Origin: Eledone cirrhosa | Taxonomy: Eukaryota | Length of the DNA stretch: 64,000 nucleotides | Assembly: GCA_964016885.1 (NCBI GenBank) | Contig: OZ024740.1 | Coordinates: 165,230,001 to 165,294,000, forward strand | Direction: 5' to 3' | In this document: positions 5,585 through 59,050 of the stretch, piece after piece | Layout of the letters: each line of letters opens with the position of its first letter | Numbering within the stretch: the first letter of the stretch is position 1 | Made by a program: the position numbers and the translations under genes | Notes under the pieces: generated by a model | What the model saw: only the letters and a program-made list of their open reading frames with translations | The model's database searches: none | What the model was told of the DNA's origin: nothing

Positions 5585-5791
5585 TTTTTTCAAAGAAATT
5601 TTTGGATAATAATAAAAGTTAAAATTTTGGGCACAAGGCCCCAATCTTTTTGGGTGTCCTTTTCGGAAAACAATGTATGTGTGCTTATAAACAGTTAACA
5701 ATAATATTTTCCATAAATGGCAATTTTTAACAAACGGAAATAACAAACCTTTGCGGAGCTCACGATGATACGATTTACTACGTAGGTCGCC

Positions 5792-5815
5792 AATAATAAT
5801 AATAATAATAATAAT
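5792..5815. repeat. (AAT)n spacer between Tx1 copy 1 5' end and copy 2 3' end
   Basis: Pure AAT run read directly. Confidence 0.95.
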
Positions 5816-6405
5816 ACTTTCTTTATTAACCACAAGGGTTTACATAAAGTAGACATTAAGGATATTACAGGACAATACAGGACGGTACAAATGGACATTT
5901 CTGCGTGTAAAAAAAACATGATGTAATAAAAAAAATAACAATGAAAAATTCCCCAATAGGGGGGAGACTTCCGAGGGTCATTTCTGGAGAAAGCCCATTA
6001 AAAGGCAACAGTGACCCTGACCACCAGGGCAAGTGCCCTCTCCCAGTTTTCCATCTTTAATTTACAGACACATACTCAGAGTACGGGCCATACTTGCTTC
6101 TATTACCCATCTTTCAACAAAATGCTGGGAAGAGAGCACTCACTCTCTACCCTGATTTTCCTTTTCAAATGAAATTTGAAAAAGTTAATCAGGGCATCAC
6201 CGAAGAGGTAAGTGCTCGTTTTCAGCCCTTTCAAACGTGTCCACCATTTCGCCATGGCCACCATACAGATAAAAACTGCCTGCCCTTCCCGGCTAAAGGA
6301 AGAGGGCGGGGCAATGCTCACGATGGACTCAGCTGATAGCTGGATCCGTCCTACACGTGACAGCAGGTGTTCGACATAAACCCACAAGTCAGTAATGCTC
6401 GGACA
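5816..6405 (-). mobile_element. Tx1-like copy 2, 5'-truncated (ORF2 C-terminus + 3' UTR only)
   Basis: 5896-6405 matches 1-528 with small deletions. It ends in AATAAAGAAAG + (TAT)n on the minus strand. Confidence 0.88.
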
Positions 6406-56372: not shown

Positions 56373-58696
56373 TTGTTGTTATTCCTTGAATCTCAGTCAT
56401 TGATGTTAGTTAACTGGAAAGTCCGTTGGATTGAATATCAAGCCACTACCTGCAGCCTCAGATATTCAGGACGTATCGGAGGGTTCTTGCTGTTCCAAGC
56501 AAGCATGCCTTTTGAAGCGTTCCAAAAAGCGTGAAGGGGCCGATTTTCTTTAACCATCCCTGGAAACTTTTGGAGATAGTCCCCAGTGCGCCTATGACAA
56601 TCGGGATCACTTTGACTTCATGGCAGTTCCAAATCCGTTTCACCTCCCACTTTAGGTCCTGGTATCGGTTAATTTTCTCCCTCTCCTTCTCTTGCACTCT
56701 CGTGTCGAACGGGCAGGCCACATCCACAATCAGACACGATCTTTTTTCTTTGTCCACAACCACCAGGTCAGGTCTATTGTGTTCCAGTTTTTTGTCCGTC
56801 TGTATCCTAAAATCCCACAGCACCTTCACCTGATTGTTCTCCATCACCGCCTCTGGCCTATGCTCATACCATTTCTCAGAATGTGGTAAATTGTTTACTT
56901 TGCACAGGTGCCAGTGGATCACTCTGCCCATCACATCGTGTCTCCAGCCCTTATAGTGGGTCTGGGCTAGGTGTTTACACTCGGACTCAATGTGAGCCAC
57001 AGTCTCCTCTCTCTCTCTCCACAGATCCTGCACAGTGGGCTAGCCTCTTCCTTGTAGATATGGTGCTTCAACCACTTCGTTTTGAGGGCCTGCTCCTGCG
57101 CAGCCATTAGCATTCCTTCTGTAGCCTTTTTGAGGTCTCCTCTTCTCAACCAGTTCCATGTCTGTGGATCTCTAAATTCAGTTTTCTCAAAGAAGGTACT
57201 ATGAAGGGGTTTTCCCTTAAGGCTGCTCTTCCTCCTTGATGTTACTTCCTCCTTGGACATCCCCTGGCCTACTGTCCCCTCCTTCAGTACAGTTCTGAGC
57301 ATTGGCTCCTTACTATAGGTCACGTATTTGTATAGGTTGTTTTTCTCCATCTGAACACAGTCCTCTATGCTGATAAGACCTCTTCCACCCTCAGATCTCC
57401 TTAGGTAGAGTCTATCGACATCACTCCTCTTGTGGAACATGTTATAGATAGTCAATAGCTTCCTAGTCTTCCTATCCATTTCTTTTTGTTCAGCAACATT
57501 CCATCTCAGAATTCCCGCACTGTACCTAATAATAGACACAGCTCGGGAATTTACTGCGCTTATGGCATTTCTGCTGTTCAGATGTGACTTCAATACGCTC
57601 CTTACTCTCCGAATGTATTCAGTTCTTAACAATTCCTTCATTTTTTTGTTCTTTATGCCATCAGCCTCCAGAACGCCCAAATACTTGTATCCTTCCTCAG
57701 AGTCAATTTCCTTTATCATCTCACCTGTTGGTATCTGGATCCCGTTACTTCTGCTCAACCTACCCCTCTTCATCACAATGACTCCACATTTACCAATACC
57801 AAACTGCATACATATATCATTGCTGAAAATACGGACAGTGTCAACAAGCACATCCAACTCCTTCTCACTTTTCCCGAAGAGCTTAAGATCGTCCATGAAG
57901 AGGAGGTGATTGATGGTAAGCTCTCCCCTTCCCAACTTGTATCCTGCTCTCACTTTTCGCAGCATAATGGTCAAGGGCATCAGGGCAAGGACAAACAACA
58001 GAGGGGACAGGCTATCTCCCTGGAAGATACCTCTCTTGATCTTCACGTTTCCCAAGGATACTCCAGTTGATGTCAACTCTGTCTCCCATGACCCCATACT
58101 CCTGCCTAGCAACTGTCTGATGTTATCTGCCACCCTGAAGATCTCCAGGCTTTTGGTGATCCAGGAATGAGGCACCATGTCAAATGCCTTTCTGTAGTCT
58201 ATCTATCCCATGGCAAGATCAGTGTGTCTCCTCCTGCAATTCCCCATTACCATCTTATCAATAAGTAACTGGTCCTTTGTACCACGTGACCTCTTTCGGC
58301 ATCCTTTCTGTTCGTCGGTAACAAGTTGTTTGTGTGGAGGTGATGGTAGATTTCCTCAGACACAATGCTCGTCAACAGTTTCCACATTACGGACAGACAT
58401 GTGACAGGTCTATAGTTGGTAACATCATTACCCTTGATTCGGTATTTCATTATCAGAACTGTGGTACCTTTTGTCAACGACTCTGGCACCTCACCCGACA
58501 CCAATCAGTCATTGAACATGGCCGTCAGCTTCGGGTGGAGGGATGTTAAATGTTTAATCCAATACCCCTGCACACCATCTGGGCCTGGTGATTTCCAGTT
58601 GGTTAGTTTTTTGGCCTGCCCCTTAAGAGTTTCAACTGTGATACTCAAATCAGTCTGTTGTTGTGCCTGCTCACCGATCTCCCTCTGTACTGTCTC
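56373..58696 (-). mobile_element. R4/Dong-like non-LTR retrotransposon copy b, 5'-truncated (RT + CCHC + RLE), frameshifted
   Basis: YRPVTCL, DYRKAFDMVPH, GIFQGDSLSP, FMDD, YKYLGV, RPD motif; (ATT)n on both sides; nearly identical to copy a where they overlap. Confidence 0.9.
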
Positions 58697-58767
58697 ATTA
58701 TTATTATTATTATTATTATTATTATTATTATTATTATTATTATTATTATTATTATTATTATTATTAT

Positions 58768-59050
58768 GGGCGTTGGATTGGCAGTATCGGTAGGGGGTCG
58801 GAGGCTATGCTTTGCAGCACGGCGTTACGCCCCTTTATGATCTGAGTTCAAATCCTGCCAAGGTTAACTTTGCCTTTCATCCTTACGGGGTCAATAAAAT
58901 AAAGTACCAGTAATGCACTGGGTAATTGCTGGCCTTGTGCCACAACTAGAAACAATTTGCCTTTCATCCTTACGGGGTCGATAATATAAAGTACCAGTAA
59001 TACACTGGGCATTTGCTGGCCTTGTGCCACAAATAGAAACAATTATTATT
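58768..59050 (+). mobile_element. Octopus-type SINE with tandemly duplicated 3' half
   Basis: Full head and body to ~58956; TTTGCCTTTCATCC...GGCCTTGTGCC is repeated at 58956-59045; inserted in (ATT)n. Confidence 0.85.

What the first reader, a model, noticed from the sequence alone, without database searches (positions are those of the whole stretch)
5629..59045. Shared YUUGU-pentaloop hairpin at the Tx1 3' end and SINE 3' end: candidate LINE-SINE partnership by structural mimicry
Seen: the Tx1 sense 3' end is AACC-CTTGT-GGTT-AATAAAGAAAG-(TAT)n (5828-5840 and 16493-16505; AACC-TTTGT-GGTT at 10516-10528). The SINE 3' end is GGC-CTTGT-GCC-TAAAGTAGAAAC-(ATT)n (e.g. 28476-28486, 35884-35894; TGGC-CTTGT-GCCA at ~58930 and ~59017). 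The loop is the same, the stem is different but still paired, the AGAAA-containing spacer is of similar length, and the ATT tail has the same polarity. Established: stringent LINEs recognise a 3' stem-loop that partner SINEs share. Inference: this Tx1-like ORF2p mobilises the SINE through a match in structure rather than sequence, which a BLAST of tails would miss.
Basis: partly seen in the sequence, partly recalled or inferred. Interest (0 to 1): 0.72.

Follow-up and report, generated by a model that had tools for sequence, protein, structure and literature searches.

The report
SINE rides ATT-targeting Tx1-like LINE
A very abundant short jumping repeat in this octopus-like genome shares its last two dozen bases, a small predicted RNA hairpin and its ATT-rich landing site with a family of long L1/Tx1-like jumping genes, which therefore likely copy it, probably by recognising that tail; this kind of partnership is described for plant and algal relatives, and my searches did not find it described for animal ones.

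Summary
Observation confirmed, with corrections. All named hairpins exist, but the hit at 5630-5640 is a LINE 5' UTR, and the ATT 'tail' is largely target DNA. The LINE is an abundant L1/Tx1-like lineage whose 4-bp stem covaries across subfamilies. A model trained only on LINE ends picks SINE ends as its next-best hits (17 of 17 at >=18 bits) and no rival LINE end. SINE and LINE share a pyrimidine|ATTAT target; SINE duplications run 9-23 nt. A CR1-like LINE with an ATT tail lacks this signature. So the partnership is likely. 'Structure rather than sequence' is not supported: a sequence-only model finds the SINE too (19 of 22), and the last 24 nt are 17-18/24 identical to subfamily C, not to the window's subfamily A. 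This looks like a short captured tail with one flipped base pair. Weak point: the SINE hairpin shows no covariation and is predicted in only 24 of 149 whole SINEs. The scan noted this pairing before on other DNA of this genome.

The parts
1..5791 (-). L1/Tx1-like LINE copy, subfamily A; 5' end intact, ORF2 broken, 3' end lies outside the window
   Evidence: APE endonuclease, RVT_1, zf-RVT
5630..5640 (-). Hairpin-like motif in the LINE 5' UTR that happens to equal the SINE hairpin; not a SINE. Loop varies between copies and subfamilies
   Evidence: not in the MFE structure
5792..5816 (-). (ATT)8 tract between two head-to-tail LINE copies (target/duplication)
5816..6403 (-). 5'-truncated subfamily A copy; 3' hairpin at 5828-5840, poly(A)-signal hexamer, then ATT
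6403..16444 (-). Older LINE copy (D-type 5' end, C-type 3' UTR), split by the + copy; its 3' remnant (6403-6488) ends at its own loop
6521..10540 (+). 5'-truncated subfamily A copy; hairpin 10516-10528; inserted at a T|ATTAT site inside the older copy's 3' UTR
   Evidence: compared with intact C-type copy L284
16445..16478 (-). (ATT)11 tract between LINE copies
16481..22319 (-). Full-length (5.84 kb) decayed subfamily A copy; hairpin 16493-16505
22320..22463 (-). 3' fragment of a CR1-like LINE (F7, 22359-22463) whose (ATT)13 tail (22320-22358) is the landing site of the full-length copy
28313..28499 (+). Full-length short-form SINE: A and B box-like head (recalled consensus), central body, hairpin 28476-28486, ATT repeats on both sides
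34769..34936 (+). Short-form SINE, one stem mismatch
34949..35160 (+). Older long-form SINE; hairpin 35137-35147
35778..35907 (+). 5'-truncated short-form SINE; hairpin 35884-35894
44280..44375 (-). 5'-truncated short-form SINE; hairpin 44293-44303
58768..59041 (+). Short-form SINE with a tandem partial duplicate; hairpins 58931-58941 and 59018-59028; preceded by (ATT)22

Best explanation
The SINE carries a tail of about 24 nt (YUUGU loop in a 3-4 bp stem, a 16-nt spacing, then ATT) that matches the 3' end of an ATT-targeting L1/Tx1-like LINE lineage and was likely captured from it, and that lineage's ORF2 protein likely copies the SINE. Shown: shared loop and spacing, 17-18 of 24 identity to subfamily C, covarying LINE stem, shared pyrimidine|ATTAT insertion site. 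Inferred: the APE endonuclease nicks the bottom strand of the ATTAT site; the freed end pairs with the AUU repeat of the RNA; ORF2p, bound at the hairpin, starts reverse transcription at a fixed distance from the loop; a second nick about 11-20 nt away gives a duplication that begins with ATTAT. Against subfamilies B and C the SINE stem differs by one flipped pair (C-G to G-C) and has lost the poly(A)-signal hexamer, which a Pol III transcript would not need. Each insertion re-creates a target behind its own end, which would explain head-to-tail stacks of LINEs and SINEs.
For: LINE stem: 96.2% of 52 cells paired, 2 of 4 pairs change on both sides, 0/500 shuffles reach the covariation score, slid controls at most 55.8%; closing pair predicted (P>0.5) in 66 of 72 LINE ends. 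LINE-only model: 17 of 17 next hits >=18 bits are SINE ends; 27 of 70 SINE ends hit in sense, 0 in antisense; in 647 kb all 22 hits are LINE (13) or SINE (9) ends. No hit on the 3' ends of four CR1-like, two RNase H-bearing or RTE LINE families or on the window's Dong-like end. SINE duplications in 66 of 169 copies against 4.9% in swapped controls; in the short form the base before is C 36, T 19, A 3. LINE: (ATT)n at the 5' junction of 20 of 20 full-length copies; clean ATT-starting duplications at L016, L020, L254, L261 and L083; nested insertion at T|ATTAT in the window. No poly(A) tail after any of 83 listed LINE ends despite the poly(A) signal (by eye), so copying starts at a fixed internal point. 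All 156 SINE-type ends in 1.81 Mb carry a SINE body. Intact ORF2 frames and copies 98.6-99.6% alike exist; the lineage is 2.6-2.8% of a random 600 kb. In zebrafish L2, stems can be swapped while the loop must stay (PMC4176376).
Against: SINE side: no compensatory change among 125 copies; the outer pair is U-A in 70 but U.U in 51. The stem is predicted in 85 of 149 60-nt ends but in only 24 of 149 whole SINEs, and the commonest window form folds into a competing helix. Model scores are low (rough E 0.02-0.8), five of the 17 top hits are one tandem array, the ten loci were chosen for holding SINEs, and in the window three chance hits outscored the SINE ends. The two pair-count measures do not beat shuffles (314/500 and 316/500) and the 13 rows are related. 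23 of 42 truncated LINE junctions show neither a duplication nor upstream ATT (some are reference edges). LINEs sit in long ATT runs, while SINEs mostly use a short ATTAT (only 22 of 102 full-length SINEs have three or more ATT units upstream). The hairpin is also in sister families with (ATCT)n ends, so it does not name the subfamily. The LINE survey is a sample, not a library.
Confidence: 0.62

Rival explanations
1. Same partner, relaxed recognition: the LINE enzyme copies the SINE by pairing its AUU repeat with the nicked target; the hairpin is a relic of tail capture and is not read on the SINE.
For: SINE hairpin lacks covariation and is often not predicted in whole-SINE folds. 3' repeats alone steer priming in RTE-related elements (PMC6007223, passages).
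Against: Loop and 16-nt spacing are kept in old and young SINE forms while the poly(A)-signal positions drift. The ATT-tailed CR1-like LINE F7 shows no ATT-starting duplications (0 of 31 at offset 0), although its RNA ends in AUU repeats.
Confidence: 0.15
2. True convergent mimicry: the SINE tail evolved the loop and spacing independently, with no descent from the LINE.
For: Likeness stops just upstream of the stem (sequence-only hits start at model positions 19-31); no LINE with the exact SINE stem was found.
Against: 17-18 of 24 identity without gaps, including the terminal bases, and the two older long-form SINE ends tested are at least as close as the young ones. Known SINE tails are captured LINE ends, 35-61 bp at 72-95% in bivalves (PMC11481361).
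Confidence: 0.1
3. Another LINE is the partner: the young CR1-like F7 family (ATT tail), Dong/R4, RTE or an unsampled family; the likeness to the L1/Tx1-like end is incidental.
For: F7 is young (about 98.7% between copies), has intact frames, 4,851 exact tails and the same ATT polarity. Octopus vulgaris has active RTE, Dong-R4 and CR1 families (PMC13282606).
Against: F7 has a different hairpin (6-nt loop), is not hit by the model and adds its ATT tail in front of unrelated targets (2 of 31 with ATT upstream; 5 duplication calls all start 8-27 nt into the run). Dong tails have the opposite polarity. RTE and the other families end in other repeats.
Confidence: 0.1

Closest known systems
Monocot L1 (LINE1-1_ZM, monocot 1a) with ZmSINE2/3, and Chlamydomonas L1-1_CR with SINEX-3_CR (PMC3472496, PMC3747384; passages and Table 1 read)
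   Same: L1-clade LINE with a conserved 3' hairpin, conserved loop, variable but compensated stem, shared with a tRNA-type SINE.
   Different: Those are plant and algal, share about 50-80 nt, and have no microsatellite target. Here it is an animal, about 24 nt are shared, and the target is ATTAT.
Crocodilian SINEU with Tx1-Mar (PMC4494074, parts 1-3 of 5 read)
   Same: A Tx1-type LINE inferred to move a SINE from shared target preference; tandem stacking around a duplication.
   Different: SINEU has snRNA heads and poly(A) tails, and no LINE matched the 3' half of SINEU-1. Here the 3' end itself is shared and there is no poly(A) tail.
Stringent L2 pairs: UnaL2/UnaSINE, ZfL2-1 and ZfL2-2 (PMC1636434 passages; PMC4176376 abstract, passages, Discussion)
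   Same: Five-base loop on a stem, followed by a short repeat that primes reverse transcription; loop read specifically, stem generally. This is the working model here.
   Different: L2 clade, longer stem and about 60 nt shared, experimentally proven; not target-specific.
Microsatellite-targeting Tx1 families: Kibi (TC)n, Koshi (TTC)n, crocodilian (TTCC)n/(TTTC)n (PMC4494074; PMC3812793 passages)
   Same: APE-type L1/Tx1 LINE that inserts in a simple repeat.
   Different: Target here is ATT, with sister families at (ATCT)n; no partner SINE is named for Kibi or Koshi in the passages read; the RT tree does not place this lineage inside vertebrate Tx1.

Membership tests
L1 clade (broad) | ORF2 with APE endonuclease, RT and C-terminal CCHC/zf-RVT; RT closest to L1 | tested here: met
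   Pfam hits; human L1 ORF2p E 2e-52 against R2 1e-21; L1-type rows apart from the CR1-like outgroup at 100/100.
Tx1 clade (strict) | RT groups with Xenopus Tx1 | tested here: inconclusive
   Xenopus TX1 protein E 5e-92, 29% identity, but the tree puts this lineage with Argonauta and unnamed ENA proteins (99/100) in an open fork beside the vertebrate Tx1 group.
Tx1 clade (strict) | Target-sequence preference | tested here: met
   (ATT)n at 20 of 20 full-length 5' junctions; 19 of 42 truncated junctions with ATT or a duplication.
tRNA-derived SINE | [quoted passage not shown] | tested here: inconclusive
   A and B box-like motifs seen by eye against recalled consensus; ARAGORN and Rfam find no tRNA.
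tRNA-derived SINE | Short, non-coding, high copy, 5' truncations, target-site duplications | tested here: met
   About 185-215 nt, 151,589 exact tail matches, duplications in 66 of 169.
Deu/Nin- or Meta-domain SINE | Conserved central domain | tested here: inconclusive
   Deu/Nin likeness is recalled only. By eye against the Meta consensus in the PMC4824008 supplement only a 9-nt stretch agrees; the Deu consensus is not printed there.
Stringent SINE-LINE pair | Shared 3'-terminal sequence | tested here: met
   17-18 of 24 to subfamily C; profile searches. Shorter than usual.
Stringent SINE-LINE pair | Conserved stem-loop on both partners | tested here: inconclusive
   Met for the LINE; no covariation and weak prediction for the SINE.
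Stringent SINE-LINE pair | Shared insertion signature | tested here: met
   Pyrimidine|ATTAT start at offset 0-1 in both; absent in F7. Few clean LINE cases (5).
Stringent SINE-LINE pair | Tail needed and enough for trans-mobilisation | not testable with these tools
   Needs a retrotransposition or binding assay.

The most novel reading that the evidence does not exclude
An animal L1/Tx1-like lineage has kept (or regained) stringent RNA recognition through a minimal 24-nt signal, a YUUGU hairpin that sets the start of reverse transcription 16 nt away, and through it has driven a SINE to more than 150,000 copies in octopods, aimed at ATTAT sites that each insertion re-creates. It would be the animal counterpart of the plant and algal stringent L1 pairs and a test case for Ohshima's proposal that stringency is ancestral in L1.
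Probability: 0.45. Interest if true: 0.68.

Novelty: new variant of a known kind. Interest (0 to 1): 0.5.

Why it matters
Of 58 SINE-LINE pairs with a shared tail listed by Ohshima, only three have L1 tails, all plant or algal, and none is labelled Tx1; the one Tx1-SINE link I found in print rests on target preference alone. This pair would add an animal L1/Tx1-like case with both a shared hairpin tail and a shared target. It makes the stringent-versus-relaxed question for L1 testable with a 24-nt element and intact ORF2 copies, and it names a likely engine for one of the large SINE expansions of octopod genomes. It does not change how LINEs work.

Tried and rejected
DNA search of the genome with the SINE found nothing because common words are skipped; patterns were used instead. 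Rfam gave only chance microRNA hits on the window and nothing on the SINE. A LINE bearing the exact SINE stem plus poly(A) signal: 15 matches, all SINE copies. First duplication scan used poor junctions for F7 and the LINE and had an 11.7% control rate for SINEs; redone. Automatic junction finding was noisy and was used only for the 3' ends. Reading the SINE stem as one pair shorter was dropped for the ungapped flipped-pair reading, which keeps the 16-nt spacing. Age profiles were too thin to compare (8-10 LINE hits in 600 kb; SINE identity to one young copy 74-100%). Public runs: no RNA holder listed. Contigs of other organisms hold the SINE end by the thousand, but the letter tables list nothing near contig ends, so they say nothing on covariation. 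An anchored score of the SINE end against each LINE end with a null, and a permissive BLAST of tails, were not run, so 'BLAST would miss it' stays untested.

Full report
1. Observation. A scan for any 3-bp stem around YUUGU gives 14 matches in the window: 3 LINE 3' ends, 6 SINE ends, 1 LINE 5' UTR (5630-5640, the finding's start coordinate) and 4 unrelated places. So the bare motif is weak and needs context. The first 22 kb hold five nested or stacked LINE copies; SINE copies lie at 28.3, 34.8, 34.9, 35.8, 44.3 and 58.8-59.0 kb.

2. The LINE. ORF2 has APE endonuclease, RT and zf-RVT domains; intact frames of up to 1,204 codons between stops exist elsewhere. The nearest named relative is from Argonauta hians (69% over 59% of the length); Xenopus TX1 scores E 5e-92 and human L1 E 2e-52. 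An RT tree of 29 rows (26 of the 120 listed homologues, this ORF2 and two CR1-like outgroups) puts it among L1-type proteins in its own group with Argonauta and unnamed ENA proteins, not joined with support to vertebrate Tx1. I call it L1/Tx1-like; the host is octopus-like by inference. Two tail types alone have 6,701 and 3,261 exact copies, and the lineage is 2.6-2.8% of a random 600 kb. Subfamilies (my labels A, D, B1-3, C) are 75-99% alike; sister families end in (ATCT)n.

3. The LINE hairpin is real as far as comparison can show. In 13 ends from these subfamilies 96.2% of 52 cells pair; the outer two pairs switch between A-U, G-C, U-A and G-U, the inner two C-G never vary; 0 of 500 shuffles reach the covariation score and slid stems pair at most 55.8%. 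The two pair-count measures do not beat shuffles, and the rows are related. The closing pair is predicted in 66 of 72 ends (60 nt) and 55 of 72 (200 nt). A poly(A)-signal hexamer follows the stem, yet none of 83 listed ends carries poly(A) (by eye); I infer that copying starts at a fixed internal point.

4. The SINE has 151,589 exact tail matches and a short young and a long older form. Among 125 copies found by their central body, 81 have the exact 3-bp hairpin, the rest scattered changes with no recurring compensatory pair; the fourth pair is U-A in 70 and U.U in 51. The stem is predicted in 85 of 149 60-nt ends but only 24 of 149 whole SINEs, and the commonest window form folds into a competing helix. 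This is the weakest link.

5. Does the SINE end resemble the LINE end beyond chance? A covariance model built from the 13 LINE ends only was run without filters over ten random 10-kb loci chosen for holding SINEs: after two true LINE ends, 17 of 17 hits at 18 bits or more are SINE 3' ends (five from one tandem array); 27 of 70 SINE ends are hit in sense and none in antisense. Over 647 kb with filters, all 22 hits are LINE (13, three of them training rows) or SINE (9) ends, the SINE stem aligning without gaps. In the window itself the SINE ends scored 15.7-16.4 bits and three chance hits scored higher. Fifteen loci with the ends of other LINE families gave 11 hits, none on those ends.

6. Structure or sequence? 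The same alignment modelled without base pairs still ranks SINE ends first: 19 of 22 hits at 6 bits or more. Without gaps, the last 24 nt of four SINE copies match subfamily C at 17-18, D at 14-16 and the window's A at 13-15 positions. Against B and C the 3-bp SINE stem differs by one flipped pair. Loop-to-ATT distance is 16 nt in 106 of 150 SINE copies, and 16 (41) or 17 (33) in 81 LINE ends. Most spacer differences fall on the poly(A) signal. A short captured tail explains this better than mimicry, though descent is inferred. One SINE copy (L120) ends in the last 13 nt of subfamily B, a possible template switch.

7. Insertion signature. SINE: duplications in 66 of 169 copies (swapped control 166 of 3,367); in the short form (58 of 138) they are 9-23 nt, begin at offset 0-1 in 53, start with ATTAT in 31 (16 more lie in another ATT-rich end), and follow C 36, T 19, A 3 times. 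The sample includes loci picked by the tail pattern and some tandem copies. LINE: 20 of 20 full-length copies have (ATT)n at the 5' junction. Of 42 truncated junctions 9 gave a duplication call, 13 have ATT upstream, 19 either, 23 neither; four calls are clean ATT-starting duplications at offset 0, and L083 adds a fifth; at least four of the 42 are reference edges. In the window the + copy sits at T|ATTAT in an older copy's 3' UTR. LINEs favour long ATT runs more than SINEs do (22 of 102 full-length SINEs).

8. Rivals. An endonuclease-family search and random samples gave four CR1-like, three RNase H-bearing, one RTE and Dong/R4-like families (labels from motifs, recalled). Only the CR1-like F7 has an ATT tail of the same polarity (4,851 exact). 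It has another hairpin, 2 of 31 junctions with upstream ATT and no duplication starting at offset 0. Dong-like tails run the other way. All 156 SINE-type ends in 1.81 Mb carry a SINE body. This is a sample, not a full library.

9. Mechanism (inferred), by analogy with L2: loop read specifically, stem generally, stems exchangeable (PMC4176376, Discussion); repeat used for priming (PMC1636434, passages). See Best explanation.

10. Literature. Eight searches returned no paper on an octopod SINE with an L1/Tx1 tail. Ohshima's table of 58 pairs has no partner labelled Tx1 and three L1 tails, plant or algal (PMC3747384 Table 1; PMC3472496 passages). SINEU/Tx1-Mar rests on target preference (PMC4494074 parts 1-3). 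Bivalve SINE partners are CR1, CR1-Zenon, L2 and Nimb (PMC11481361 passages). Octopus repeat papers list L1-Tx1 and SINEs but no pairing in the passages seen (PMC13282606; PMC8967140). Also seen as passages: PMC4758252, PMC5804259, PMC5786205, PMC6007223, PMC3812793, and PMC4824008 with parts of its supplement. Not seen: Ohshima and Okada 1994, Akasaki 2010, Piskurek and Jackson 2011, Repbase or Dfam entries, any of which may already note the pair or name the SINE.

11. Earlier notes of this scan report the same pairing at least eight times on other DNA of this genome. They are unreviewed and not independent; the tests above are my own.

12. Verdict: a real, likely SINE-LINE partnership; a new variant of a known kind; interest 0.5.

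Noticed in passing
window 5625-5655 (-), 16260-16345 (-); L236-L272: All LINE subfamilies have a palindromic hairpin in the 5' UTR about 130-165 nt from the 5' end, shortly before ORF1; subfamily D has two further hairpins upstream of it. Role unknown (promoter, translation or ribozyme-like).
   Followed up: partly
window 55290-58700 (-): Dong/R4-like LINE with restriction-like endonuclease (label recalled), (AAT)n tail, and a 1.1-kb tandem duplication of its 3' part (55257-56349 / 56347-57447, 97%). 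The L1/Tx1-like copies often insert tail-to-tail into Dong tails.
   Followed up: partly
window 40472-40830 (+): A second SINE with a duplicated 75-nt head and a CORE-like body (by eye against PMC4824008 supplement rows); different 3' end, no ATT signature seen.
   Followed up: no
window 6403-6410: A truncated subfamily A copy is joined exactly at the loop of the older copy's hairpin through a few shared bases, replacing its last 21 nt.
   Followed up: no
L106:950-2361, L172:5804-5859, L101:5144-5197: Sister L1/Tx1-like families end in (ATCT)n, keep the hairpin with other stems and loops, and also stack: a target switch within one lineage.
   Followed up: partly
L120 (about 1500): SINE copy whose end switches to the last 13 nt of LINE subfamily B.
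   Followed up: no
window 53378-54700 (+), 61150-62140 (-): Two decayed Penelope-like elements (GIY-YIG-like frames, label recalled; no Pfam hit).
   Followed up: no
window 27968-28311, 28500-28641, 59029-59192, 46251-52962: Palindromic MITE-like repeats; two SINE copies sit in ATT runs of the same repeat family.
   Followed up: no
L156-L158: CR1-like family F7 is very young, has many intact 957-codon frames and a tandemly duplicated 3' UTR hairpin unit.
   Followed up: partly
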